Source: a virus. Taken from it: DNA of 28,122 nt. A model generated the notes under the pieces. It did no database searches. It was not told where the DNA came from and saw nothing but the letters and a program-made list of their open reading frames with translations. Of the stretch, positions 9,340-16,744 are shown piece after piece. Where the stretch lies: UHGV virus genome UHGV-1710763, one strand, 5' to 3'. Position 1 is the first letter of the stretch, and every line of letters starts with the position of its first letter. The position numbers and the translations under genes are program-made.

Positions 9340-10755
9340 ATGAGCGAATTATTTAAACATGCGCACCTTCATGCAGGTCGAACTGAAAATGGTGCTGTAA
9401 ACCATACTTCATCAATGTCTGCTCTTGTAGACTTTTACAAAGCTGCTGGTTCAAGCCGTAGCAATGTAGAAATCTTACCAGACCTGTTCTACAAAGCTTT
9501 GCGTGAGGATGTTGATGTTGCAGTTCGTATTTTACTGCATATGCGAGATGTACGAGAAGGTATGGGTGAGCGTAAAGCCTTCAGAACTGTTTTGCTTCAA
9601 GCAATTGAAGATAAAGTTTTAGAGCCTACACAGGTTCTTCGCATTATGGATAAGATTGCAGAACTTGGTCGTTTTGATGACTTCAAAATCTTCGTAGGTA
9701 CTCGTTTCGAGACAGATGCCTTCAAACATTTAGAAGCAGCATTACTAGACCCTGCAACAGCAGGTTTGGCAGCTAAGTGGTTACCACGAGTAAAACCACG
9801 TCACAAACAGTTTGTAAAACGTTTCTGCAAGTTTGCAAACTTGAGTGAGAAGGAGTATCGCACACTGTTATCTGCACTGTCTGATACGGTTGAGCAAAAA
9901 ATCTCTGCTAATGAGTTTGGTAAGATTGACTACAGTAAGATTCCTTCACTTGCTGCTGCACGTTACCAAAAACTCTTTAACCGTAAAGATGGAGAACGCT
10001 ACAAAGCTTACATTGAGTCCTTATCAAAGGGCGAGACTAAGATTAATGCTGGTGCTGTTTATCCATACGATGTGATTAAATCTGTTAAGTATGGTAATGC
10101 AGATGTTGCTAATGAGCAGTGGAAAGCACTACCAAACTGGATGGCAGAGGGTGAAAACATTCTATGTATGTCTGATGTTTCAAGTTCAATGTCTTGGGTG
10201 AATTTTGGTTCAATTACTGCTCTTGATATTGGTGTTTCACTTGCATTGTATGTAGCAGAACGTAATACAGGTTGCTTTAAGAATGAGTTGATGGTTTATT
10301 CAACAAACCCTCACTTCATTGAACTGAGTGGTGATTTACGAAACCGTCATCGTCAGGTGATGCGACACGTTGAATATGGCTCAACTAACTTACAAGCAGC
10401 TTTTGACCGTATTCTTGAGACAGGTAAAAGAAACAACTTGACTCAGAAAGATATGCCAAGTAAGCTTATCATCTTCTCCGATATGGAGTTCAATCAGGTT
10501 GATGGAGCTAACGGTCGTACAAACTTTGAAGCAATTCAGAGTAAGTACAAAAAAGCTGGATATGAGATGCCACAACTGGTATTCTGGTACTTAGCAAACC
10601 GTAATGGCACTTGCGAAGTATCTGTTAAGGATAACGGTGTAGCAATGGTATCTGGTTTCTCTCCAGCCACTTTAAAAGCTTTGCTTGGTGGTGAGAAGTT
10701 TGACCCAATCAGCGTAATGCTCAAAGCAGTAATGATTGACCGTTATATCTGGTAA
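9340..10755 (+). CDS. Ro60/TROVE-like protein: alpha-helical N-terminal region plus C-terminal vWA domain with MIDAS motif (Rsr-like)
   Basis: MIDAS DxSxS in ILCMSDVSSSMSW; C-terminal IIFSDMEF; YPYDVIKSV segment; helical N-terminus. These parallel Ro60 segments as recalled from memory (HPFHILIAL, LLAVDVSASMN, VFIVFTDNE). Confidence 0.55.
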   Translation: MSELFKHAHLHAGRTENGAVNHTSSMSALVDFYKAAGSSRSNVEILPDLFYKALREDVDVAVRILLHMRDVREGMGERKAFRTVLLQAIEDKVLEPTQVLRIMDKIAELGRFDDFKIFVGTRFETDAFKHLEAALLDPATAGLAAKWLPRVKPRHKQFVKRFCKFANLSEKEYRTLLSALSDTVEQKISANEFGKIDYSKIPSLAAARYQKLFNRKDGERYKAYIESLSKGETKINAGAVYPYDVIKSVKYGNADVANEQWKALPNWMAEGENILCMSDVSSSMSWVNFGSITALDIGVSLALYVAERNTGCFKNELMVYSTNPHFIELSGDLRNRHRQVMRHVEYGSTNLQAAFDRILETGKRNNLTQKDMPSKLIIFSDMEFNQVDGANGRTNFEAIQSKYKKAGYEMPQLVFWYLANRNGTCEVSVKDNGVAMVSGFSPATLKALLGGEKFDPISVMLKAVMIDRYIW

Positions 10756-10765
10756 AAAGTTTTAA

Positions 10766-10802
10766 AAAGGGTATTGACAATGTGTTTGATACCCTTTAAT
10801 AT
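10766..10802 (+). promoter_or_regulatory. sigma70-like promoter (TTGACA-17-TAATAT) embedded in a 9-bp-stem hairpin just after the Ro60-like gene
   Basis: TTGACA 10774-10779, TAATAT 10797-10802; inverted repeat AAAGGGTAT (10766-10774) / ATACCCTTT (10789-10797). Confidence 0.55.
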
Positions 10803-10864
10803 TTTCTACATAGAAACGAAATGAGAGCTTTTCTAAGATACTGAAAAATATTTTAAAAAAGTTC

Positions 10865-10894
10865 TTGACAATCACTAAAAAATAATGTTAAAGT
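10865..10894 (+). promoter_or_regulatory. sigma70-like promoter ahead of the first tRNA
   Basis: TTGACA at 10865-10870; TAAAGT at 18-nt spacing; AAAAAAGTTCTTGACA upstream context. Confidence 0.45.
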
Positions 10895-10920
10895 GGTTAC
10901 ATAGAGTTTGAAAAGTTTAT

Positions 10921-10997
10921 CTCTGTTTAGCTCAGCTTGGTAGAGCGTTCCGTTTGGGGCGGTAAGGCCGGAGGTTCAAGTCCTCCAACAGAGACCA
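10921..10997 (+). tRNA. tRNA-Pro (anticodon TGG)
   Basis: Hand-folded cloverleaf: acceptor CTCTGTT / AACAGAG, D-arm GCTC..GAGC, anticodon loop TTTGGGG, T-arm GGAGG-TTCAAGT-CCTCC, encoded CCA. Confidence 0.7.
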
Positions 10998-11004
10998 AAT
11001 TAAT

Positions 11005-11082
11005 GTTCCAGTAGACAAAATGGTAAAGTCACCACTCTTTCAAAGTGGATATCTGAGGGTTCAAATCCCTTCTGGAACGCCA
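11005..11082 (+). tRNA. tRNA-Glu (anticodon TTC)
   Basis: Acceptor GTTCCAG / CTGGAAC; anticodon stem CCACT / AGTGG with loop CTTTCAA; T-loop TTCAAAT; CCA. Confidence 0.75.
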
Positions 11083-11173
11083 GTTTTGACAGAAGACCAA
11101 TTACAGCAAACTTAATCTTATTCATCTGAAGGTAAATCGGACAAAGAAGAGATTTGGTCTGGTCATTAAGAAT

Positions 11174-11250
11174 TGCGGGTATAGAGAAAGGGCGTCTCAC
11201 ATGTCTCATTAGCATGGTATCGGCAGGTTCGACTCCTGCACCCGCCTCCA
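11174..11250 (+). tRNA. tRNA with CAT anticodon (Met, fMet or Ile-lysidine; identity unresolved)
   Basis: Anticodon stem CATGT / GCATG with loop CTCATTA; T-arm GCAGG-TTCGACT-CCTGC; acceptor has a 1:72 mismatch; CCA. Confidence 0.65.
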
Positions 11251-11334
11251 AATTTACAGAAGACCGTTTACAGCAATACTTATTAAATTTTTAGCGGAAA
11301 AAATTGAAATATACGGTCTGGTAATACTAAACAT

Positions 11335-11411
11335 GGTTAGGAAGCACATAAGGTATGTGCGGTCGCCTGTTAAGCGAATGGCACAGGGTTCGAATCCCTG
11401 ACTAACCGCCA
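11335..11411 (+). tRNA. tRNA-Asn (anticodon GTT)
   Basis: Acceptor GGTTAGG / ACTAACC; D-arm GCAC..GTGC; loop CTGTTAA; T-arm CAGGG-TTCGAAT-CCCTG; CCA. Confidence 0.75.
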
Positions 11412-11480
11412 AATTTAGGAGAGAAGCAATTGCTCACCGATTTGTAAGGTGCAAGTCCTTAGCCTGAATAGAAATTAAAT

Positions 11481-11568
11481 GTGTCGTTATCCCGTAGATG
11501 GTAGCGGTGGGGACTGTAAATCCCTTGTCATTGAGACTCGGTAGGTTCGACTCCTACACGGCACACCA
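11481..11568 (+). tRNA. tRNA-Tyr (anticodon GTA), class II with long variable arm
   Basis: Acceptor GTGTCGT / ACGGCAC; anticodon stem GGGGA / TCCCT with loop CTGTAAA; ~15-nt variable arm; T-arm GTAGG-TTCGACT-CCTAC; CCA. Confidence 0.65.
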
Positions 11569-11573
11569 ATAAA

Positions 11574-11651
11574 GGTTATGTAGTTTAATTTGGTTAAAAT
11601 ACTCCCCTGTCACGGGAGATGATGAGGGTTCAAATCCCTTCGTAACCGCCA
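11574..11651 (+). tRNA. tRNA-Asp (anticodon GTC)
   Basis: Acceptor GGTTATG / CGTAACC; anticodon stem CTCCC / GGGAG with loop CTGTCAC; T-loop TTCAAAT; CCA. Confidence 0.75.
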
Positions 11652-11834
11652 ATTTTGAGAGGGCTATTTAGCCCCTCCCTTAAAGGGTTCTTACGAGTAT
11701 CCTTTAAAGGAGCAGAAGACCAAATACAGCAAGTTACTTAAAATTTCAAGCCAATTTAATTTTGAAAAATTTAAAACTTGGTCTGGCTCAACAAATTTAC
11801 AGAAGACCGTTTACAGCAAAACTTAAACAATCTA

Positions 11835-11907
11835 TTTCTCCGGTAAAGAAAAGGCGAAGGTTCGATTCCTTCACTCGGCAGATGTCGAGTTGGTGTAATG
11901 GTAGCAC
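11835..11907 (+). ncRNA. circularly permuted tRNA-like element (anticodon-like hairpin, T-arm, acceptor stem closed by an AGAT loop, D-arm); candidate Y-RNA-like tRNA mimic
   Basis: Order read directly: TTTCT-CCGGTAA-AGAAA, GAAGG-TTCGATT-CCTTC, ACTCGGC-AGAT-GTCGAGT (7 bp), TG, GTG-TAATGGTAG-CAC; no 5' acceptor partner upstream and no 3' half downstream. Confidence 0.35.
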
Positions 11908-11932
11908 TTAAGATGATAAACAACGGTCTGGT

Positions 11933-12076
11933 AATTATCTTTGTAGATAAGTTATTAAGCTTACCTGTGAGTATGCGACCACAAAGGGTGAAAGGGTAAA
12001 TTCTAGATTTAAACCTAACAAGGCACATCGCTACAGACCTTAAGCAAGTCTGGGTAGCTTATCTACAAAGATAATT
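11933..12076. repeat. perfect 18-19-bp inverted repeat flanking a ~106-bp segment (long hairpin, possible RNase III site or miniature element)
   Basis: ATTATCTTTGTAGATAAG at 11934-11951 is the exact reverse complement of CTTATCTACAAAGATAAT at 12058-12075. Confidence 0.6.
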
Positions 12077-12080
12077 TAAT

Positions 12081-12156
12081 GGAAGTGTAGCAGAATGGTG
12101 ATGCGGCAGACTTTTAATCTGACAGGCGATGGGTTCGAATCCCTCCACTTCTACCA
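12081..12156 (+). tRNA. tRNA-Lys (anticodon TTT)
   Basis: Acceptor GGAAGTG / CACTTCT; anticodon loop CTTTTAA; T-loop TTCGAAT; CCA; paralogue of the Lys(CTT) gene at 13309. Confidence 0.75.
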
Positions 12157-12161
12157 AAAAT

Positions 12162-12238
12162 GGTTCAGTCGCAGATAAGGTAATGCAAGGGTTTCATAAG
12201 CCCTATGAATGTGGGTTCGATTCCCACCTGAACCTCCA
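12162..12238 (+). tRNA. tRNA with CAT anticodon (second copy; Met / fMet / Ile2 unresolved)
   Basis: Acceptor GGTTCAG / CTGAACC perfect; anticodon stem AGGGT / GCCCT with loop TTCATAA; T-arm GTGGG-TTCGATT-CCCAC; CCA. Confidence 0.7.
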
Positions 12239-12239
12239 A

Positions 12240-12315
12240 GCTGGTATAGTTAAGAAGGTTATAACACTCCCCTGATAAGGGAACATCGGTGGTTCGATTC
12301 CACCTACCAGTACCA
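12240..12315 (+). tRNA. tRNA-Ile (anticodon GAT)
   Basis: D-arm GTTA..TAAC; anticodon loop CTGATAA; T-arm GGTGG-TTCGATT-CCACC; CCA. Confidence 0.7.
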
Positions 12316-12330
12316 ATTTCAATAAAGTTG

Positions 12331-12359
12331 TTGACATTGAGATGTGACTACTTTATAGT
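12331..12359 (+). promoter_or_regulatory. strong sigma70-like promoter inside the tRNA island (TTGACA-17-TATAGT)
   Basis: TTGACA 12331-12336, exactly 17-nt spacer, TATAGT 12354-12359, with the AATAAAGTTGTTGACA upstream context. Confidence 0.6.
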
Positions 12360-12562
12360 AACCTTAGTTTTCGTTGCGTAGCGTCTATTTTGCAAATTTA
12401 AAATAAATGCAAACGACAATGTTTTTCTGGCAGTAGCTTGATAGGCTAAACACCAGTGAGGTCTTCCAATCCCTCATCAAAGAATTTGGCGTACTAGCCC
12501 ACGGTATGATTAATAAGGTGGGCATCTTTAAGGGCTTTCTAAGAGAGTCTTTAAAGATTAAT

Positions 12563-12639
12563 GCACCCTTAGTTCAATTGGATAGAGCAACGGTCTTCTA
12601 AATCGTTAGTTACAGGTTCGAATCCTGTAGGGTGTACCA
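12563..12639 (+). tRNA. tRNA-Arg (anticodon TCT)
   Basis: Acceptor GCACCCT / AGGGTGT; D-arm GTTC..GAGC; anticodon stem ACGGT / ATCGT with loop CTTCTAA; T-arm ACAGG-TTCGAAT-CCTGT; CCA. Confidence 0.75.
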
Positions 12640-12780
12640 ATTAGTTAGCAGATTACTTAGACGACCTAAGCGGGTCTTCCTGTAGGGAGGTGGTCTGTAT
12701 CTCATGTTTTCCAGAACATGTAAATAATCTGAGAAGGGGCTTTACAGTGTTGAGATAATACGGTAAGCTTCGAATTATAG

Positions 12781-12867
12781 TATGGGACGATGTTAAGACT
12801 CTAAGGCATGAGCAACGGCTTCCAACACCGTTTCAAAGGGGTTCAACTCATCCGTCCCATGCCAAAG
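12781..12867 (+). ncRNA. unresolved tRNA-like structured element (11-bp terminal stem, 9-nt-loop hairpin with CTTCCAA, T-loop-like GGGGTTCAA, ends GCCA)
   Basis: TATGGGACGATG pairs with CATCCGTCCCATG; internal hairpin AACGG-CTTCCAACA-CCGTT; no canonical cloverleaf could be drawn. Confidence 0.3.
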
Positions 12868-12877
12868 TCTTATTAGG

Positions 12878-12965
12878 GGTAGGTAGCGGCTAATGGTAGC
12901 CAAACAGTCTTGAAAACTGTTGCCACTGTAGAGATACGGTGAGGGTTCGACTCCTTTACTTACCG
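12878..12965 (+). tRNA. tRNA-Ser (anticodon TGA), class II; CCA not encoded
   Basis: Acceptor GGTAGGT / ACTTACC; anticodon stem ACAGT / ACTGT perfect with loop CTTGAAA; long variable arm; T-loop TTCGACT. Confidence 0.6.
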
Positions 12966-13223
12966 CCTAATAAGATTTTACACCGTCCATGCTTGCTCGC
13001 ATTTTCGGTTTATCCCTCGTGTATTGTCGTACACACTGATAAAGCACCTAGTAGGTGTCACGGAGAAGAGATAATATCAAGCTCTCCAAAGGTTCTAGCC
13101 ACCGGATTAAACAAGACTATGCAAAGACCTTTTTAGGTCTTTTTAGAGGGCTTCTAAGGTTATTACAGCTTGTTGTGGAACCTTGTTGCTTAGGTTCTTA
13201 GAAGTTCTCTAAAAAGATTTAAT

Positions 13224-13301
13224 GGGAGATTGACGGTAATTGGTAAACCTACCATCCTTAGAAGTTGGTGTTTGAGGGTTCGAATCCCTTGTCTCCTACC
13301 A
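13224..13301 (+). tRNA. tRNA, anticodon provisionally TAG (Leu) on a class-I-length scaffold; identity uncertain
   Basis: Acceptor GGGAGAT / GTCTCCT (two G-U pairs); loop CTTAGAA between CCATC / GTTGG (one mismatch); T-arm GAGGG-TTCGAAT-CCCTT; CCA; D-arm irregular. Confidence 0.5.
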
Positions 13302-13308
13302 AATTAAT

Positions 13309-13384
13309 GCAGGTGTAGCAAAATGGTTATGCGGCTGACTCTTAATCAGTAAGACGATGGGTTCAATTCCCTCCACCTGTACCA
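13309..13384 (+). tRNA. tRNA-Lys (anticodon CTT)
   Basis: Acceptor GCAGGTG / CACCTGT; anticodon stem GCTGA / TCAGT with loop CTCTTAA; T-loop TTCAATT; CCA. Confidence 0.75.
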
Positions 13385-13391
13385 AACAATG

Positions 13392-13467
13392 GGGGTCATA
13401 GTTTATATGGTTAAAATTCGAGTTTTGCAAACTTGGGAACTGAGTTCAATTCTCAGTGACTCCACCA
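13392..13467 (+). tRNA. tRNA-Ala (anticodon TGC)
   Basis: Acceptor GGGGTCA / TGACTCC; anticodon stem CGAGT / ACTTG with loop TTTGCAA; T-arm CTGAG-TTCAATT-CTCAG; CCA. Confidence 0.75.
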
Positions 13468-13473
13468 ATTAGT

Positions 13474-13548
13474 GCATCCATAGTTTAAACGGGAAAATTA
13501 CAGTCTTCCAAACTGAGGTTGAGGGTTCGATTCCCTCTGGATGCTCCA
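13474..13548 (+). tRNA. tRNA-Gly (anticodon TCC)
   Basis: Acceptor GCATCCA / TGGATGC perfect; loop CTTCCAA; T-arm GAGGG-TTCGATT-CCCTC; CCA. Confidence 0.75.
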
Positions 13549-13562
13549 AATTAAGGTGTGAT

Positions 13563-13976
13563 ATGAAAATATGCAGTACTTGCAGAATACCAAAAGATGA
13601 AAGCTTATTCCATAAGAATAAGAACAAGAAAGACGGTCTTCAAAGTCAATGCAAAGATTGTGCAAGACTTCGTGATGCAAAGAGTTATCAAGCAAATGAT
13701 AAAAGGAAAGAGGCTATTAAAAGCACTCGTAACTTCAAGAGAGAGCATAACAAGACTCTAGCTAGAAGGTACAAAGCTTTATGCAAATGTCATATATGTG
13801 GTGAGAAAGAACCAGTTGCACTGGATTTACACCATACAGACCCTTCCCAGAAAGATTTGAATCCTGCATCACTTTATTCATACTCCACAAAAAGATTAAA
13901 AGATGAAATCAGAAAGTGCATTGTCTTGTGCGCTAACTGTCACAGAAAAGTACATGCTGGTATCATAAAAGTTTAA
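13563..13976 (+). CDS. HNH family endonuclease (free-standing homing-endonuclease-like gene)
   Basis: Cys pairs CKDC and CKCHIC plus an HNH core (LDLHHTD ... N ... CANCHRKVH) in the translation; sits between tRNA-Gly and tRNA-Thr. Confidence 0.7.
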   Translation: MKICSTCRIPKDESLFHKNKNKKDGLQSQCKDCARLRDAKSYQANDKRKEAIKSTRNFKREHNKTLARRYKALCKCHICGEKEPVALDLHHTDPSQKDLNPASLYSYSTKRLKDEIRKCIVLCANCHRKVHAGIIKV

Positions 13977-13977
13977 T

Positions 13978-14054
13978 GCTGCTTTCGTATAATTGGCTAT
14001 TACACATCCCTTGTAAGGATGGAAATGCAGGTTCGAGTCCTGTGAGCAGCACCA
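13978..14054 (+). tRNA. tRNA-Thr (anticodon TGT)
   Basis: Acceptor GCTGCTT / GAGCAGC; anticodon stem CATCC / GGATG perfect with loop CTTGTAA; T-loop TTCGAGT; CCA; starts 2 nt after the HNH stop codon. Confidence 0.8.
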
Positions 14055-14149
14055 ATTCAGAGGTCAAGTGAAAGACCGCTGGTGTCAACTGAAGACCGTA
14101 ACAAATTCCACGGAGTTGAGTTAGCGGCACAACTTCAGACCTCTTTCAT

Positions 14150-14224
14150 ACTCGCTTAGTTTATATGGTAAAACATCACCCTTACAAGATGAAGAGAAAG
14201 GTTCAAGCCCTTTAGTGAGTACCA
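14150..14224 (+). tRNA. tRNA-Val (anticodon TAC)
   Basis: Acceptor ACTCGCT / AGTGAGT; D-arm GTTT..AAAC; loop CTTACAA; T-arm AAAGG-TTCAAGC-CCTTT; CCA. Confidence 0.65.
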
Positions 14225-14225
14225 T

Positions 14226-14303
14226 GTTCCAGTATCCCAATTGGCAGAGGATGCAAGCTCAAACCTTGTACTAGTGACGGTTCGAATCCGTCTTGGAACA
14301 CCA
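14226..14303 (+). tRNA. tRNA with CAA anticodon (Leu-type) but only a 6-nt variable region
   Basis: Acceptor GTTCCAG / TTGGAAC; anticodon stem GCAAG / CTTGT with loop CTCAAAC; T-arm GACGG-TTCGAAT-CCGTC; A73; CCA. Confidence 0.6.
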
Positions 14304-14308
14304 ATTTT

Positions 14309-14384
14309 GCAGGATTAGTTCAAATGGATAGAGCAACAGTCTACGAAGCTGTTAATAGGGGTTCGAATCCCTTATCCTGCGCCA
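14309..14384 (+). tRNA. tRNA-Arg (anticodon ACG)
   Basis: Acceptor GCAGGAT / ATCCTGC perfect; D-arm GTTC..GAGC; anticodon stem ACAGT / GCTGT with loop CTACGAA; T-loop TTCGAAT; CCA. Confidence 0.8.
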
Positions 14385-14403
14385 ATTTAAAGAGGCTATT
14401 TAG

Positions 14404-14961
14404 ATGAGATATTTGAAGTATGCTTCATGGATTTTCTTAGCTTTGTTAGAGCCATTTGCAGCAATCTTAGCAGTTATCTTAGCACCTTTTGTAGTTCCAT
14501 TCTACAGTGAGAAGAAAGGACACTTACCTTTCGGATTCAGATGGATGGAGACATATGACAACCCAATTGATGGTGATGAAGGTCACGTTAAAAGATGGGC
14601 TAATATTAGATGGATTGGTAAACTAGGTGTCTACATGCAAAGAGTCGGATGGCTCTGGAGAAACAAAGCTTATAACTTCTCTTACCATGTATTAGGAAGA
14701 GATGTAAAAGATGTTACTAAGTGGAAAGGTAATATCAACGTAAGTTCTAACCCTGAAGATAATCAGACAGGTTATCTCCTAATGTGGAACAGCAATGCTT
14801 GGGGATTATTCGCTTTTATCCCATCAATTAAAATCTTTGGTAAACAGTTCTACTGGAGAATTTATATTGGGTGGAAGCTAAAAAGTGTTGTCCCAGAAGA
14901 AAGAGCATTCTCAAGGGAAAGAGTTATGTTGGCATTCTTTATTCATCCACTAAGAAAGTAA
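14404..14961 (+). CDS. hypothetical membrane protein (hydrophobic N-terminus, Trp-rich)
   Basis: ORF-track ORF; N-terminal hydrophobic stretch WIFLALLEPFAAILAVILAPFVV; embedded between tRNA genes. Confidence 0.55.
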   Translation: MRYLKYASWIFLALLEPFAAILAVILAPFVVPFYSEKKGHLPFGFRWMETYDNPIDGDEGHVKRWANIRWIGKLGVYMQRVGWLWRNKAYNFSYHVLGRDVKDVTKWKGNINVSSNPEDNQTGYLLMWNSNAWGLFAFIPSIKIFGKQFYWRIYIGWKLKSVVPEERAFSRERVMLAFFIHPLRK

Positions 14962-14969
14962 AGATTTAA

Positions 14970-15045
14970 AGGGGATTAGTTTACAAGGTTAAAACCTCGG
15001 TCTTTGAAATCGAAGAAGTTGGTTCAATTCCAACATCCCCCGCCA
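14970..15045 (+). tRNA. tRNA-Gln (anticodon TTG)
   Basis: D-arm GTTT..AAAC; anticodon stem TCGGT / ATCGA with loop CTTTGAA; T-arm GTTGG-TTCAATT-CCAAC; weak 1:72 pair; CCA. Confidence 0.7.
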
Positions 15046-15047
15046 AT

Positions 15048-15126
15048 GCTCCATTACTCCAATTGGCAGAGAGGCCAGACTTAAAATCTGTGTTATGTAT
15101 CGGTTCGAATCCGATATGGAGTACCA
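15048..15126 (+). tRNA. tRNA with TAA anticodon (Leu-type) but only a 7-nt variable region
   Basis: Acceptor GCTCCAT / ATGGAGT; anticodon loop CTTAAAA; T-arm ATCGG-TTCGAAT-CCGAT; A73; CCA. Confidence 0.6.
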
Positions 15127-15131
15127 AATTT

Positions 15132-15207
15132 AGCGGTATAGCATAACTGGCAATGCAACAGTCTCTGAAGCTGTCTTATTAAGGTTCAAATCCTTATGCC
15201 GCTGCCA
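15132..15207 (+). tRNA. tRNA-Gln (anticodon CTG)
   Basis: Acceptor AGCGGTA / TGCCGCT; anticodon stem ACAGT / GCTGT with loop CTCTGAA; T-arm TAAGG-TTCAAAT-CCTTA; CCA. Confidence 0.7.
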
Positions 15208-15238
15208 CTTCTAAGGGTTCTTACGAGAGTCCTTAAAT

Positions 15239-15314
15239 GTGGCCTTATCATAAATGGTAATGACCCATGCTGTGAACATGGTCTATACGGGTTCAAATCC
15301 CGTAGGTCACCCCA
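15239..15314 (+). tRNA. tRNA-His (anticodon GTG)
   Basis: Acceptor GTGGCCT / AGGTCAC; D-arm TCAT..ATGA; anticodon stem CCATG / CATGG perfect with loop CTGTGAA; C73 discriminator; CCA. Confidence 0.75.
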
Positions 15315-15321
15315 ATTTATA

Positions 15322-15396
15322 GTCCAAGTAGCTTATATGGTTAAAGCGCGTGTCTGAAAAACATGAGAAGAGGGTTCAAATCCCACTGGACTACCA
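15322..15396 (+). tRNA. tRNA-Phe (anticodon GAA); acceptor register ambiguous
   Basis: D-arm GCTT..AAGC; anticodon stem CGTGT / ACATG with loop CTGAAAA; T-loop TTCAAAT; ends ACCA. Confidence 0.65.
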
Positions 15397-15412
15397 ATTT
15401 CAAAGGTGCTTA

Positions 15413-16147
15413 ATGAAAGAGATGACAGAACAAGGTAAGGAGATTTTTAATCTCTTAAAAACCGGTAAAGGGTTTTCTAACCCACTTATTACTGGTGCAG
15501 CAGTTCTCGGTGGAACCGTAGCTGCCTCTACATCACTTGTAAGCTCTATTAGCTCTGTAACAGACCCTACAACGAAGGAGAAACTTGTTGCTGCTGGACT
15601 TACAACAGTTCTTCTAAACAGCTTTACAACAAGCCTGACAAGCACTACAGCAACTACTAAGACCCTAACAGACTACGGTCAAAAGTCTATTGATGAGTTT
15701 TCATCACGTATGCAGGTGGCAAAGGGATATTCCAATGTTATGGGTGCAGCAGGAGAACAAGTTGGTTGTACACCATTCAGTGGTATTATGGGTGTTGCTA
15801 CAGAGTATGGTCAGCAAGCTATTGACATGATTAACAGCACACTAGACAGTGTTAACGGTGTGTTAAGTGACTTACAAGATGCTATTGACAAGGGTCTTGA
15901 TACTGTTTCTGATTTAGCTAACCAAGCTGTAAGTAAGATTAATGAAGGTATTTCAAAGATTACAGCTTATGCAGATGAAGTTGTGCAGATGATTGAAGAA
16001 GAAGCTGCCCTTATTGCAGAGTACCTTAAAACGAATATCAATGGGTTCTTAGCAGGTATCTTACCAGACTGGTTTGATGATGCCTGTAAAACTGGTGTAA
16101 TTGACACTATTGCAACACCAGAAATGAAGAACGCATTACAGAAATAA
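15413..16147 (+). CDS. hypothetical Ser/Thr-rich protein; start moved downstream of the track ORF (15350) to the first ATG clear of tRNA-Phe
   Basis: Track ORF 15350..16147 overlaps the tRNA at 15322-15396; the in-frame ATG at 15413 has AAAGGTG upstream. Confidence 0.55.
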   Translation: MKEMTEQGKEIFNLLKTGKGFSNPLITGAAVLGGTVAASTSLVSSISSVTDPTTKEKLVAAGLTTVLLNSFTTSLTSTTATTKTLTDYGQKSIDEFSSRMQVAKGYSNVMGAAGEQVGCTPFSGIMGVATEYGQQAIDMINSTLDSVNGVLSDLQDAIDKGLDTVSDLANQAVSKINEGISKITAYADEVVQMIEEEAALIAEYLKTNINGFLAGILPDWFDDACKTGVIDTIATPEMKNALQK

Positions 16148-16148
16148 T

Positions 16149-16241
16149 GGAAGATTAACCCTAAAAGGTAAGGGAGCAGTTTGCTAAACTGCCAGTAGCT
16201 GAGAAATCGGTGTACCAGTTCAAGTCTGGTATCTTCCTCCA
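16149..16241 (+). tRNA. tRNA-Ser (anticodon GCT), class II with long variable arm
   Basis: Acceptor GGAAGAT / ATCTTCC perfect; anticodon stem GCAGT / ACTGC perfect with loop TTGCTAA; ~20-nt variable arm; T-arm ACCAG-TTCAAGT-CTGGT; CCA. Confidence 0.8.
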
Positions 16242-16245
16242 ATTT

Positions 16246-16321
16246 GAATCCGTGACAGAAATGGCTATGTGCCTGTCTGCAAAACAGGTTTATAAGGGTT
16301 CGAGTCCCTTCGGATTCTCCA
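16246..16321 (+). tRNA. tRNA-Cys (anticodon GCA)
   Basis: Acceptor GAATCCG / CGGATTC perfect; anticodon stem CCTGT / ACAGG perfect with loop CTGCAAA; T-arm AAGGG-TTCGAGT-CCCTT; CCA. Confidence 0.8.
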
Positions 16322-16358
16322 AGTTATTTTACTCTCTCTCAATTAAAATAATAATAAT

Positions 16359-16418
16359 GCCCTGCTATAAGTATTCTTCCTTTCGCTACCGAAGAGTATT
16401 TTTAGACAGGGCTTTTTT
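16359..16418 (+). terminator. compound hairpin followed by a T-run (terminator closing the tRNA island)
   Basis: GCCCTG ... CAGGGC followed by TTTTTT at 16413-16418, with an inner imperfect hairpin. Confidence 0.45.
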
Positions 16419-16483
16419 ACAGAGTTATACTTTATAAGAAGCCTTATACAGTATGTCTCTGACGTACATTGTGGTTTCTCCTT

Positions 16484-16507
16484 GACGGTCTCTGTACCGT
16501 CTTTTTT
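16484..16507 (+). terminator. Rho-independent terminator
   Basis: GACGGT-CTCTGT-ACCGTC followed by TTTTTT. Confidence 0.6.
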
Positions 16508-16543
16508 AAGGGGAAACATGATTAACTATTTGGAGAAAACATA

Positions 16544-16744
16544 ATGAGCGAGACCGTTTATAAAGAACTTTATGAAGCTAATAAGAAGCTAGAATTTATG
16601 CAGAATACTATCATGGCAATTGCAGACAGATTGTCTGTAGCAACAGGTATTGATATTAAAGAAGCATCTATGGATGCACTTCTTGATGCTGTTGATGCAA
16701 AGTTCGAAGTTAAGAAAGAAGAGACTGCTACAGACTCTGAATAA
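16544..16744 (+). CDS. hypothetical protein (66 aa) immediately upstream of the large terminase
   Basis: ORF-track ORF; GGAG ribosome-binding site upstream; position is typical of a small packaging protein but nothing in the sequence confirms that. Confidence 0.45.
   Translation: MSETVYKELYEANKKLEFMQNTIMAIADRLSVATGIDIKEASMDALLDAVDAKFEVKKEETATDSE

What the first reader, a model, noticed from the sequence alone, without database searches (positions are those of the whole stretch)
11680..11707. Conserved hairpin motif AGGG(T/C)TTCT(T/A)A(C/A)GAGAGTC recurring upstream of tRNAs
Copies at 11680-11707, 12525-12557 (just before tRNA-Arg) and 15212-15235 (between tRNA-Gln and tRNA-His) share a ~20-nt core presented in the loop of hairpins whose stems differ in sequence. 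Degenerate versions occur at 13150-13200. A conserved loop with varying stems suggests a recognition element for processing or protein binding.
Basis: seen in the sequence. Interest (0 to 1): 0.45.

Follow-up and report, generated by a model that had tools for sequence, protein, structure and literature searches.

The report
Conserved RNA hairpins punctuating phage tRNA cluster
Four related RNA stem-loops sit between the tRNA genes and other small-RNA genes of this Felix O1-like phage; they are real and evolutionarily maintained, most likely mark and protect RNA ends during processing of the long precursor, and one of them closes an undescribed tmRNA-like RNA.

Summary
The window is the tRNA region of a Felixounavirus, 97% identical to Felix O1.

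Related copies lie at 11680-11707 (c1), 12524-12558 (c2) and 15212-15235 (c3). A split copy lies at 13133-13222 (c4). Chance expectation for the motif is 0.02 matches.

The conserved core is the stem, not a loop. The stem is rich in G·U pairs and capped by a UACG/UGCG tetraloop (c1, c3) or a triloop (c2).

**Evidence for a plus-strand RNA structure under selection:**
- Compensatory changes occur across Ounavirinae genera.
- c2 and c4 fold much better on the tRNA strand.
- c3 is 24/24 identical where flanking tRNAs are about 91% identical.

**What they are not.** They lack U-tracts and promoters, so they are not terminators or PeSL cassettes. They match no Rfam family.

**Position.** c2, c3 and c4 end 1-4 nt before a tRNA 5' end. 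c1 precedes a Y-RNA-like unit.

**c2 and the tmRNA-like RNA.** c2 is the last helix of a promoter-driven tmRNA-like RNA with tag ANDNVFLAVA and no tRNA-like domain. Its Erwinia-phage ortholog carries a c3-type hairpin.

**Best reading (about 0.45).** They are processing and stability punctuation hairpins in the polycistronic precursor. Cleavage and protein binding are untested.

The parts
11680..11707 (+). c1 hairpin: UUAAAGGGUUCU-UACG-AGUAUCCUUUAA. 12-pair stem with one U x U mismatch and one G·U pair, capped by a UACG tetraloop. It lies 30 nt after tRNA-Asp and 5 nt before Y-RNA-like unit 3.
   Evidence: Folds at -12.6 kcal/mol with z = -2.5. Covariance model R1 scores it 48.8 bits. Pair 7-22 is found as G-C, A-U, G·U, and A x C only in Felix O1.
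11657..11679 (+). GC-rich hairpin (GAGAGGGCU-AUUU-AGCCCCUC) directly 5' of c1. It is not followed by a U-tract.
   Evidence: Fold of 11652-11713. Read from the sequence.
12524..12558 (+). c2 hairpin: AUCUUUAAGGGCUUUC-UAA-GAGAGUCUUUAAAGAU. 16 continuous pairs, 3 of them G·U. It is the last helix of the tmRNA-like RNA and ends 4 nt before tRNA-Arg(UCU).
   Evidence: Inverted repeat I17. Folds at -17.4 kcal/mol (z = -4.8) on the + strand against -5.7 on the - strand. In Mooglevirus one pair changes C-G to U·G and another G·U to G-C. The hairpin is retained when the downstream tRNA allele is exchanged.
15212..15235 (+). c3 hairpin: UAAGGGUUCU-UACG-AGAGUCCUUA. 10 pairs. It fills the 31-nt spacer between tRNA-Gln(CUG) and tRNA-His and ends 3 nt before G-1 of tRNA-His.
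   Evidence: Folds at -8.0 kcal/mol. It is 24/24 identical in six Suspvirus/Mooglevirus-level relatives. It is present in every locus that covers this junction.
13133..13222 (+). c4: long stem of about 29 pairs. The inner arms AGAGGGCUUCUAAG / CUUAGAAGUUCUCU carry the motif, split by a 38-nt insert (13159-13196). Its 5' arm overlaps the 3' arm and U-run of a terminator-like hairpin (13119-13145). It ends 1 nt before tRNA-Leu(UAG).
   Evidence: Inverted repeat I1. Folds at -37.6 kcal/mol (z = -6.7) on the + strand against -26.2 on the - strand. All 4 DNA mismatches are G·U on the + strand. In Suspvirus and Mooglevirus one pair changes U-A to G-C, with four further one-sided pair-keeping changes.
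11933..12076 (+). Related long closing stem (22-nt arms, 95% complementary) around a 100-nt structured insert. Its 3' arm ends in AAAGAUAAUUUAAU just before tRNA-Lys, the same ending as c2 and c4.
   Evidence: Inverted repeat I2. Folds at -47.1 kcal/mol.
12331..12359 (+). Sigma-70 promoter TTGACA-17-TATAGT, equivalent to P45 of the Felix O1 genome paper. It drives the tmRNA-like RNA that ends in c2.
   Evidence: Matches 11 of 12 consensus positions. Reported as P45 in PMC3185647.
12366..12523 (+). tmRNA-like RNA body. It starts AGUUUUCGU. The resume context AAAUAAAU is followed by the tag frame GCA..GCU UGA UAG, encoding ANDNVFLAVA**. A helix-5-like hairpin holds the stop codons, followed by two pseudoknot-type helices. 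No tRNA-like domain was found.
   Evidence: Rfam tmRNA RF00023 scores below threshold, E = 0.004-0.006. The Erwinia ortholog differs by 4 synonymous changes plus a stop-to-stop change. Tag peptides across loci are listed. Helices are supported by covariation. ARAGORN calls no tmRNA.
12563..12639 (+). tRNA-Arg(UCU), directly downstream of c2. Its RNase P site would define the 3' end of the hairpin-capped RNA.
   Evidence: ARAGORN.
15239..15314 (+). tRNA-His, directly downstream of c3.
   Evidence: ARAGORN.
13224..13301 (+). tRNA-Leu(UAG), directly downstream of c4.
   Evidence: ARAGORN.
11710..11789 (+). Y-RNA-like unit 3 (CAGAAGACCAAAUACAGCAA ... UUGGUCUGG), which starts 5 nt after c1.
   Evidence: Direct-repeat families D11 and D12. 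Fold.

Best explanation
**Explanation.** The four elements are strand-specific RNA stem-loops in the long precursor that carries 26 tRNAs and several other small RNAs. They act as structural punctuation.
- Each forms a stable closed helix at the junction between two RNA modules.
- For c2, c3 and c4 (and the related long stem 11933-12076) the helix ends 1-4 nt before the 5' end of the next tRNA.
- RNase P cleavage there would leave the upstream RNA ending in a hairpin plus a very short tail. Such a 3' end resists 3' exonucleases.
- The clearest case is c2, which caps the promoter-driven tmRNA-like RNA.
- The helices would also keep neighbouring modules from mispairing, and could provide the adjacent structured element that RNase E uses.
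- The long versions (c4 with about 29 bp, c2 with 16 bp) are additionally plausible RNase III substrates.

**Shown:** RNA-level structure, selection on it, the positions, and the absence of terminator or promoter features.

**Inferred:** which nuclease acts, and that the hairpins protect or insulate.
For: **Structure on the tRNA strand**
- c2 folds at -17.4 kcal/mol on the + strand against -5.7 on the - strand. c4 folds at -37.6 against -26.2.
- Every stem mismatch at DNA level in c2 (3) and c4 (4) is a G·U on the + strand, and none is A·C.

**Covariation in the c1/c3/Erwinia alignment**
- 4 of 12 pairs show changes on both sides.
- 90.6% of cells are paired, against 84.1% in shuffles (0/500 reach the observed value) and 40-65% when the 3' partners are slid.
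- The c4 stem has a U-A to G-C exchange and four one-sided pair-keeping changes in Suspvirus and Mooglevirus.
- The tetraloop stays UNCG: UACG, or UGCG in L022.

**Purifying selection**
- c3 is 24/24 identical in six relatives in which tRNAs are 0.87-0.92 identical and other non-coding sequence is 0.83-0.89.

**Position**
- The stem ends at 12558 and the tRNA starts at 12563; 15235 and 15239; 13222 and 13224; 12076 and 12081.
- c2 stays with the upstream tmRNA-like RNA when the downstream tRNA allele is swapped.
- The single copy in the Erwinia phage sits at the 3' end of the orthologous tmRNA-like RNA, 13 nt before tRNA-Leu.

**Restriction to the cluster**
- The hairpins occur only in the tRNA/ncRNA cluster.

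**Literature**
- Simple stem-loops can replace an adjacent tRNA as the structured determinant of RNase E cleavage (PMC9841416).
- E. coli RNase III takes part in T4 tRNA maturation (PMC4810235).
Against: - There are no end-mapping data, so no cleavage site is shown.
- c3 follows a tRNA that already carries CCA. A stable 3' hairpin there would hinder trimming of tRNA-Gln rather than help it, so 'end protection' does not explain c3.
- c1 is not next to a tRNA.
- Structure alone does not require the observed sequence identity of both arms (c3 is invariant, and c1 and c3 share AAGGGUUCUUACGAG). That points to a sequence-specific partner or to recent duplication.
- c1 and c3 (12 and 10 bp) are short for RNase III.
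- Other Ounavirinae (Pectobacterium Arno162; Yersinia P778 at the Gln-His junction) process equivalent junctions without such hairpins.
Confidence: 0.45

Rival explanations
1. The hairpins are sequence-specific binding sites for a protein. Candidates are the phage's own Ro60-like (DUF2828/DUF7788, TROVE-type) 'RNA-binding protein' encoded just upstream at 9340-10755, or another phage or host factor. That factor would mark or chaperone particular junctions of the precursor.
For: - Both arms are conserved in sequence, not only in pairing. c3 is 24/24 identical across genera, and the G·U at pair 8-21 is fixed in all 8 variants.
- The cluster starts directly after a gene with DUF2828 (E = 4e-29) and DUF7788 (E = 2e-43) domains. 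RefSeq annotates it as an RNA-binding protein.
- The cluster also holds four Y-RNA-like units, and c1 abuts one of them.
Against: - The motif proposed for bacterial Ro60 binding, GNCGAAN0-1G near the 5' end (PMC4201824), is absent from the hairpins.
- The fetched 13.5 kb Erwinia locus has the hairpin at the tmRNA-like RNA, but no homolog of the TROVE-type gene was found there.
- c2 differs from c1 and c3 in register and in loop.
Confidence: 0.15
2. They are dedicated RNase III cleavage sites that separate modules of the precursor, as RNase III does in T4 tRNA maturation and in rRNA operons.
For: - c4 (about 29 bp), the 11933-12076 stem (22 bp) and c2 (16 bp) are long, nearly perfect double-stranded RNA just upstream of tRNAs.
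- RNase III is reported to take part in T4 tRNA maturation (PMC4810235).
Against: - c3 has only 10 pairs and c1 has 12 with an internal U x U mismatch. From general knowledge, that is at or below the minimal length usually cited for E. coli RNase III. Yet these two are the most sequence-conserved copies.
- No cleavage data exist.
Confidence: 0.15
3. They are DNA-level recombination junctions or scars, with no RNA function of their own. Short shared inverted repeats would let modules (tRNAs, HNH genes, small RNAs) be exchanged, much as PeSL cassettes do in T4-like phages. c1 and c3 would be 'empty' remnants.
For: - There is mosaicism exactly at these sites. Two hairpin alleles and two alleles of the following tRNA occur in all four combinations.
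- c4 is replaced by an HNH gene in Michonne.
- The apical module GGGGCTTGGCTTAAATGCAA of the Felix O1 allele also occurs inside a different closing stem in about 47 kb phage contigs.
Against: - The compensatory changes, the exclusive G·U (never A·C) mismatches and the strand asymmetry are signatures of selection on the RNA, not on DNA homology.
- c3 is more conserved than the tRNAs around it.
Confidence: 0.12
4. They are intrinsic transcription terminators or attenuators. The c3 copy is annotated this way in Citrobacter phage Michonne.
For: - A 'terminator' feature is annotated over the c3 ortholog in NC_028247.
- The hairpins are stable.
Against: - No U-tract follows any copy. The 3' flanks are AAGGAGC, UAAUGCA, AAAUGUGG and a single U before tRNA-Leu (GGGAGAU...).
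- The terminator scan calls none of them.
- Essential-looking tRNAs follow within 1-4 nt, with no promoter in between.
- Genuine terminators in these phages are GC-rich stems with UUCG-type loops and T-runs.
Confidence: 0.04

Closest known systems
Processing stems and leader hairpins in polycistronic tRNA/rRNA precursors (RNase III stems of rRNA operons; RNase III involvement in T4 tRNA maturation; RNase E sites guided by adjacent structure)
   Same: - Stable helices lie in spacers of a multi-tRNA transcript, on the transcribed strand, a few nucleotides from mature ends.
- The long versions are of RNase III size.
   Different: - A specific repeated sequence family with fixed G·U pairs and UNCG loops.
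- Two copies are too short for classical RNase III substrates.
- No cleavage has been mapped.
3'-terminal protective stem-loops (terminator-type hairpins that stabilise sRNAs and mRNAs)
   Same: After RNase P cleavage at the next tRNA, the upstream RNA (for example the tmRNA-like RNA) would end in hairpin c2 plus about 4 nt.
   Different: - The 3' end would be made by processing, not by termination.
- There is no U-tract.
- c3 follows a tRNA, where such a cap is not obviously useful.
PeSL (promoter-early stem-loop) cassettes of T4-like phages
   Same: Repeated stem-loops at the borders of exchangeable modules in a hyperplastic region, with mosaic alleles at the same sites.
   Different: - PeSLs combine a strong sigma-70 promoter with a terminator stem-loop (from my own knowledge of the literature).
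- c1-c3 have neither a promoter nor a U-tract.
- They show RNA-level covariation.
Bacterial Y RNAs (YrlA/YrlB) next to Ro60 orthologs
   Same: - Same neighbourhood: a TROVE-type gene followed by small stem-closed RNAs.
- In relatives, comparable closing stems enclose modules that contain a T-arm.
   Different: - The c hairpins have no tRNA-like domain and lack the GNCGAAN0-1G motif.
- Other elements in the window, the four CAGAAGACC...GGUCUGG units, are the Y-RNA-like ones. The fourth of them has the YrlA-like layout (V arm, T arm, acceptor-like stem, D arm).
tmRNA (RF00023), relevant to c2 only
   Same: c2 is the terminal helix of an RNA that has tmRNA's resume-codon context, an alanine-initiated degradation-type tag, stop codons in a helix-5-like hairpin, and pseudoknots.
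   Different: - No acceptor stem, T-arm or CCA end was detected.
- The Rfam score (11-15 bits) is far below the gathering score (47).
- The c2 hairpin stands where tmRNA continues into further pseudoknots and the tRNA-like domain.

Membership tests
Intrinsic (Rho-independent) terminator | Stable stem-loop immediately followed by a U-tract | tested here: not met
   The stems are present, but no copy has a T-run within 0-2 nt. The scan calls none of them.
Intrinsic (Rho-independent) terminator | Marks the end of a transcription unit, with downstream genes having their own promoter | tested here: not met
   tRNA-Arg, tRNA-His and tRNA-Leu start 1-4 nt after the stems. No promoter-like site lies in between.
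RNase III processing site | Double-stranded stem of roughly two helical turns (about 20 bp), or at least about 11 bp for a minimal substrate. Lengths are from general knowledge. | tested here: inconclusive
   c4 has about 29 bp and c2 has 16 bp, so both meet it. c1 has 12 bp with a U x U mismatch and c3 has 10 bp, so both are borderline or fail.
RNase III processing site | Staggered cleavage in the stem that depends on the rnc gene | not testable with these tools
   Needs RNA end mapping or an in vitro cleavage assay.
PeSL cassette (T4-like phages) | Strong sigma-70-type early promoter within the cassette | tested here: not met
   No promoter-like site overlaps c1, c2 or c3. A different hairpin at 10766-10797 does overlap a promoter.
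PeSL cassette (T4-like phages) | Located at the borders of shuffled modules | tested here: met
   All four combinations of hairpin allele and tRNA allele occur. HNH genes replace or flank these sites in relatives.
Y RNA (YrlA/YrlB type) | Encoded next to a Ro60/TROVE ortholog on the same strand | tested here: met
   The DUF2828/DUF7788 protein gene at 9340-10755 lies upstream on the same strand.
Y RNA (YrlA/YrlB type) | GNCGAAN0-1G motif near the 5' end, and for YrlA a tRNA-like domain with T and D arms (PMC4201824) | tested here: not met
   The hairpins are 24-35 nt and have no T or D arm. The nearest string, ACGAGAG, departs from the motif and spans the loop and the 3' arm.
tmRNA (for the RNA that ends in c2) | Resume codon plus a tag reading frame ending in stop codon(s), conserved as a coding frame | tested here: met
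   The tag reads ANDNVFLAVA**. Window versus Erwinia shows 4 synonymous third-position changes and TGA changed to TAA. Tags AN[DE]xx[FY]LAVA occur in 126 loci.
tmRNA (for the RNA that ends in c2) | Helix 5 holding the stop codon, plus pseudoknots | tested here: met
   RNAalifold on 20 diverse sequences recovers the CUGG/CCAG helix around the stop codons and two further helices, with 5-8 sequences showing compensatory changes. The loop-to-downstream pairings CCAA/UUGG versus CCGA/UCGG were seen by eye.
tmRNA (for the RNA that ends in c2) | tRNA-like domain: acceptor stem with G3·U70, T-arm and CCA end | tested here: not met
   ARAGORN calls no tmRNA in the window or in 126 related loci. The RNA starts at AGUUUUCGU, right after the promoter. 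The Rfam score is below gathering.
UNCG-tetraloop hairpin | Loop of the form UNCG, classically closed by a C-G pair | tested here: inconclusive
   The loop is UACG in c1, c3 and the Erwinia copy, and UGCG in L022. The closing pair is U-A rather than C-G. c2 has a UAA loop instead.

The most novel reading that the evidence does not exclude
**Proposed reading.** The hairpins are the minimal ('empty') form of a closing stem used by a modular, horizontally exchanged small-RNA cassette system in phages.
- Across Ounavirinae, about 47 kb siphovirus-like contigs, Vi01-like phages and 80-110 kb phages, an undescribed tmRNA-like RNA without a tRNA-like domain is followed or flanked by long covarying stems.
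- The apical parts of those stems are interchangeable modules: T-arm/tRNA-like modules, and the GGGGCUUGGCUUAAAUGCAA module that Felix O1 shares with unrelated contigs.
- On this reading, c1-c4 are junction or docking elements recognised by one common processing, ligation or binding factor.
- c2 would then be an integral part of a new class of phage tmRNA mimic that may interfere with, or redirect, host trans-translation.
Probability: 0.22. Interest if true: 0.8.

Novelty: new variant of a known kind. Interest (0 to 1): 0.5.

Why it matters
**If the hairpins set RNA ends**
- They explain how a virulent phage produces 26 tRNAs plus Y-RNA-like and tmRNA-like RNAs from a few promoters.
- They give precise handles, through stem and compensatory mutants, to test processing in a therapeutically used phage group.

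**The larger consequence**
- Following c2 exposes a widespread phage RNA with a conserved tmRNA-type degradation tag (AN[DE]xx[FY]LAVA) but no detectable tRNA-like domain.
- It is found in at least four phage lineages.
- That raises a testable question about phage manipulation of ribosome rescue.

Tried and rejected
1. **Terminators.** Rejected because there is no U-tract and tRNAs follow immediately.
2. **PeSL-type promoter cassettes.** Rejected because c1-c3 contain no promoter.
3. **Known RNA families.** An Rfam gathering scan of the window and an E-value scan of 10700-16450 give nothing for the hairpins. The only hit is a meaningless plant miRNA match over c4.
4. **Anticodon-stem-loop mimic or decoy.** The loop string UACGA resembles the tRNA-Arg(ACG) anticodon loop. 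No register gives a 5-bp stem with a 7-nt loop without breaking the covarying pairs, so this was rejected.
5. **Degenerate T-arm (GGGUUC...).** Rejected because the pairing partner and loop size do not fit, and covariation supports the long hairpin.
6. **Ro60-binding motif.** Not present.
7. **More copies.** Covariance model R1 run over 27 sources (238 kb) found only the known copies, c2 weakly, and a weak c-like hairpin in Yersinia phage P778 at L006 3241-3271, after tRNA-Asp. An IMG/VR scan for ARGGTTCTTACGAGAGT found copies only in contigs of Ounavirinae size, plus two chance hits in L024 and L026.
8. **A tRNA-like domain for the tmRNA-like RNA.** ARAGORN finds none. I could not decide whether neighbouring mini-tRNA-like elements serve as a separate acceptor piece.
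9. **Failed or wasted calls.**
   - Pattern with too few specified bases.
   - Pattern with the wrong gap length.
   - Supplementary tables of the Y RNA paper are not held, so I could not check whether Felix O1 is among its 22 phages.
   - Literature searches found no description of the hairpins or of a tmRNA-like RNA in these phages.

Full report
**Context.** The window is the tRNA region of a Felix O1-like myovirus (Felixounavirus). Positions 10500-16600 are 97% identical to Felix O1 and to many E. coli and Salmonella relatives. ARAGORN finds 26 tRNA genes on the + strand between 10921 and 16321, all with encoded CCA. Upstream lies a 471-aa protein (9340-10755) with DUF2828 and DUF7788 domains, annotated in RefSeq relatives as an RNA-binding protein. 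Sigma-70-type promoters lie at 10774-10802 and 10865-10894, before the first tRNA, and at 12331-12359. A T-run terminator lies at 16484-16501.

- The consensus as written, without indels, matches only c2 and c3. Chance expectation is 0.02 matches, and 0/100 shuffles gave 2 or more.
- With indels allowed, c1, c2 and c3 all match.
- A covariance model of the c1/c3 type scores c1 and c3 at 45-49 bits and c2 at 19 bits. It finds nothing similar in the other 22 kb of the window.
- The 'degenerate' copy is a true fourth member. Its arms (13133-13158 and 13197-13222) are separated by 38 nt.

**Anatomy.** Folding shows the opposite.
- c3 is UAAGGGUUCU-UACG-AGAGUCCUUA, with 10 pairs.
- c1 is UUAAAGGGUUCU-UACG-AGUAUCCUUUAA, with 12 stem positions including one U x U mismatch.
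- c2 is AUCUUUAAGGGCUUUC-UAA-GAGAGUCUUUAAAGAU, with 16 pairs.
- c4 is a stem of about 29 pairs whose inner part, AGAGGGCUUCUAAG/CUUAGAAGUUCUCU, is the motif.
- The conserved 'core' is therefore the upper helix plus a UNCG-type tetraloop. What varies between copies and between phages is the apical part and the outermost A/U pairs.

**RNA or DNA, and which strand?**
- All DNA-level mismatches in the c2 (3) and c4 (4) stems are G opposite T on the + strand. None is A opposite C.
- Accordingly c2 folds at -17.4 kcal/mol on the + strand against -5.7 on the - strand, and c4 at -37.6 against -26.2.
- This is the signature of an RNA helix on the tRNA strand.

**Comparative evidence.** I collected tRNA regions from several groups:
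- Felix O1, Suspvirus SUSP2, Mooglevirus (Michonne, Sf13) and an Erwinia Kolesnikvirus;
- Yersinia phage P778 and Pectobacterium phage Arno162;
- 23 IMG/VR contigs.

*c1.* Pair 7-22 is G-C in the window, A-U in most relatives, G·U in two contigs, and A x C only in Felix O1. One contig has the loop UGCG instead of UACG.

*c2.* In Mooglevirus one pair changes C-G to U·G and another G·U to G-C.

*c4.* The Suspvirus and Mooglevirus stems show a U-A to G-C exchange and four one-sided changes that keep pairing.

*Pair counting.* On the 8 distinct c1/c3/Erwinia variants:
- 4 of 12 pairs have changes on both sides;
- 90.6% of cells are paired, against 84.1% in shuffles (0/500) and 40-65% with slid partners.

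The sample is small and the sequences are related, so this supports the structure rather than proving it.

*c3.* It is 24/24 identical in six genus-level relatives. In those relatives tRNAs are 0.87-0.92 identical and other non-coding sequence is 0.83-0.89 identical.

**Where the hairpins sit.**
- c2, c3, c4 and a further long stem (11933-12076; 22-nt arms around a 100-nt insert) end 4, 3, 1 and 4 nt before tRNA-Arg(UCU), tRNA-His, tRNA-Leu(UAG) and tRNA-Lys.
- The 3' arms of c2, c4 and the long stem all run into AAAGAU(A/U)..UAAU just before the tRNA.
- c1 differs. It lies 30 nt after tRNA-Asp, next to a GC-rich hairpin, and 5 nt before a Y-RNA-like unit.
- The Yersinia phage has weak c-like hairpins at the same place.
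- Erwinia phages have a single copy (AAAAGGUUCUUACGAGAGUCUUU), 13 nt before tRNA-Leu(CAA).

**What c2 belongs to.** The stretch 12366-12523 between the strong promoter and c2 is a tmRNA-like RNA.
- The promoter TTGACA-17-TATAGT is P45 of the Felix O1 genome paper (PMC3185647).
- The RNA has the resume context AAAAUAAAU followed by GCA AAC GAC AAU GUU UUU CUG GCA GUA GCU UGA UAG, which encodes ANDNVFLAVA**.
- Rfam tmRNA matches below threshold, at E = 0.004-0.006.
- The Erwinia ortholog encodes ANDAQFLAVA**. It differs by four synonymous third-position changes and TGA changed to TAA. This argues that the frame is read.
- A scan of IMG/VR for the tag region found 118 stretches in several phage types. 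Their tags are AN[DE]xx[FY]LAVA.
- An alignment of 20 diverse members supports three helices by compensatory changes: one around the stop codons and two further ones.
- ARAGORN finds no tmRNA and no acceptor/T-arm domain.
- A 2014 exhaustive survey of RefSeq phages listed tmRNA only in mycobacteriophages and Bacillus phage G (PMC4131195).
- c2 is the helix that immediately follows this core.
- The Erwinia copy of the hairpin is at the same position but has the c3-type sequence. The c3-type sequence at this site may therefore be the older form of c2.

**Mosaicism.** After the tmRNA-like core, Felixounaviruses carry one of two hairpin alleles:
- c2; or
- a longer hairpin whose closing stem UCUAAAGGGUA/UACCCUUUAAAA encloses a 32-nt module.

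The next gene is one of two alleles: a canonical tRNA-Arg(UCU), or a D-armless tRNA-like gene with G3·U70 and A73. All four combinations occur.

The 20-nt core of the enclosed module, GGGGCUUGGCUUAAAUGCAA, also occurs in about 47 kb contigs inside a different closing stem (GGUAAGAGCA/UGCUCUUACC). One Ounavirinae contig has an intermediate stem, with two compensatory pairs relative to Felix O1.

In those other phages the tmRNA-like core is flanked by arrays of such stems with variable inserts. Some inserts contain T-arm sequences.

**What the hairpins are not.**
- *Terminators.* The c3 ortholog is annotated as one in Michonne. No U-tract follows any copy, the scan calls none, and tRNAs follow at once.
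- *PeSL-type cassettes.* There is no promoter in them.
- *Y RNAs.* They have no tRNA-like domain and no GNCGAAN0-1G motif.
- *Anticodon-loop mimics.* No 5-bp stem with 7-nt loop register fits the covarying pairs.
- *Any Rfam family*.

**Most likely function.** I commit to structural punctuation of the precursor.
- The helices close off one RNA module just before the RNase P site of the next tRNA.
- The upstream RNA would then end in a hairpin with a very short tail and be protected from 3' exonucleases.
- Neighbouring modules would fold independently.
- This fits c2 best, where it caps a promoter-driven RNA and travels with that RNA when the downstream tRNA is exchanged. It also fits c4 and the 11933-12076 stem.
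- RNase III is reported to take part in T4 tRNA maturation (PMC4810235). The long stems are plausible RNase III substrates.

Weak points:
- c3 follows a tRNA, where a 3' cap is not obviously useful.
- c1 is not next to a tRNA.
- The sequence identity of both arms suggests a sequence-specific partner.

I therefore give this explanation 0.45 and keep protein binding, RNase III-only sites and recombination scars as live rivals. That these are selected RNA hairpins I hold at about 0.9.

**Novelty and interest.** No description of these hairpins was found in the Felix O1 genome paper or elsewhere. As spacer or processing hairpins they are a new variant of a known kind and moderately interesting. 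The interest rises because one of them is part of an apparently undescribed, widespread phage tmRNA-like RNA, and because similar closing stems carry exchangeable RNA modules in other phages. That wider reading is not established here.

Noticed in passing
window 12331-12562 (promoter 12331-12359; RNA about 12366-12562): - A promoter-driven tmRNA-like RNA with tag ANDNVFLAVA**, a helix-5-like hairpin and two covariation-supported pseudoknot helices.
- No acceptor stem, T-arm or CCA was detected.
- Homologs with tags AN[DE]xx[FY]LAVA occur in 118 IMG/VR stretches from at least four phage types and in GenBank phages swi2, XDRKpn-1, SE14, moki and VLCpiS13.
- It is not in Rfam and was not found in the literature searched.
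   Followed up: partly
window 11087-11166, 11254-11324, 11710-11789, 11804-11929: - Four units with a conserved 5' strand CAGAAGACC-NN-UWYAGCAA and a 3' strand NNGGUCUGG, whose NN positions covary.
- The fourth unit encloses a V hairpin, a T-arm (GAAGGUUCGAUUCCUUC), a closed acceptor-like stem (ACUCGGC/GUCGAGU) and a D-arm. This is the YrlA (bacterial Y RNA) layout.
- They lie directly downstream of the Ro60-like DUF2828 gene.
- The Yersinia phage P778 has related units.
   Followed up: partly
L001 3147-3250 (Felix O1), also L012, L015, L016, L019, L022: - An alternative allele in place of tRNA-Arg(UCU): a D-armless tRNA-like gene, CGGGGCG-UAUCUCA-GCGGUCUUCUAAACCGC-...-GCGGGUUCGAGUCCUGC-CGCCUCG-ACCA.
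- It has G3·U70 and A73, which are alanine identity elements, with a UCU anticodon loop.
- ARAGORN does not call it. In Felix O1 an annotated HNH ORF overlaps its 3' part.
   Followed up: partly
L001 3106-3168; L059, L085, L118: A small structured module (UCCC-loop-GGGG, then CUUGGCUUAAAUGCAA) sits inside closing stems that differ and covary between Felix O1-type phages and unrelated contigs of about 47 kb. It looks like a mobile RNA module of unknown function.
   Followed up: partly
L034-L135 (contigs of about 46-50 kb, e.g. L034, L037, L041, L048): - Arrays of long stems (ACAACAGGUAAGAGCAUU ... AGUGCUCUUUCCGUUGUGG) flank the tmRNA-like core.
- The stems carry a conserved U x U mismatch and covarying variants, around variable inserts. 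Some inserts contain T-arm sequences.
- The 3' arm upstream of the core and the 5' arm downstream of it could also pair with each other.
   Followed up: no
L005 6196-6253 (Erwinia phage): A mini tRNA-like element lies just upstream of the promoter of the tmRNA-like RNA. It has a 7-bp acceptor-like stem with one mismatch, a small D-like hairpin, a T-arm and a GCCA end, but no anticodon arm. It might be a separate acceptor piece.
   Followed up: no
window 11933-12076: A long hairpin (22-nt arms, 95% complementary, -47 kcal/mol) encloses a 100-nt structured insert, directly before tRNA-Lys(UUU). It matches no Rfam family.
   Followed up: partly
window 14055-14149: The 95-nt spacer between tRNA-Thr and tRNA-Val folds into a strong structure (-30.7 kcal/mol). 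It is conserved in SUSP2 and Michonne and is probably another small RNA.
   Followed up: no
window 12785-12866: A tRNA-like sequence not called by ARAGORN. It has a GGGACGA/UCCGUCCC acceptor-like stem, an anticodon-like arm with CCA in a 9-nt loop, an imperfect T-arm and a GCCA end. It is possibly a degenerate or unusual tRNA-Trp.
   Followed up: no
window 13119-13145: A terminator-like hairpin (AAAGACC-UUUUUA-GGUCUUUUU) inside the tRNA cluster, with a variable loop and a conserved stem in relatives. Its 3' arm and U-run are also the 5' arm of the c4 stem, so the two structures are mutually exclusive.
   Followed up: partly
window 10766-10797: A hairpin (AAAGGGUAU...AUACCCUUU) whose loop holds the -35 box of the promoter at 10774-10802. 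Its stem resembles the closing stem of the Felix O1 allele-B hairpin.
   Followed up: no
window 13563-13976; L001 2253-2738 and 3226-3618; L003 3142-3594: HNH endonuclease genes are inserted at different inter-tRNA positions in different relatives. This is consistent with homing-driven mosaicism of the cluster.
   Followed up: no
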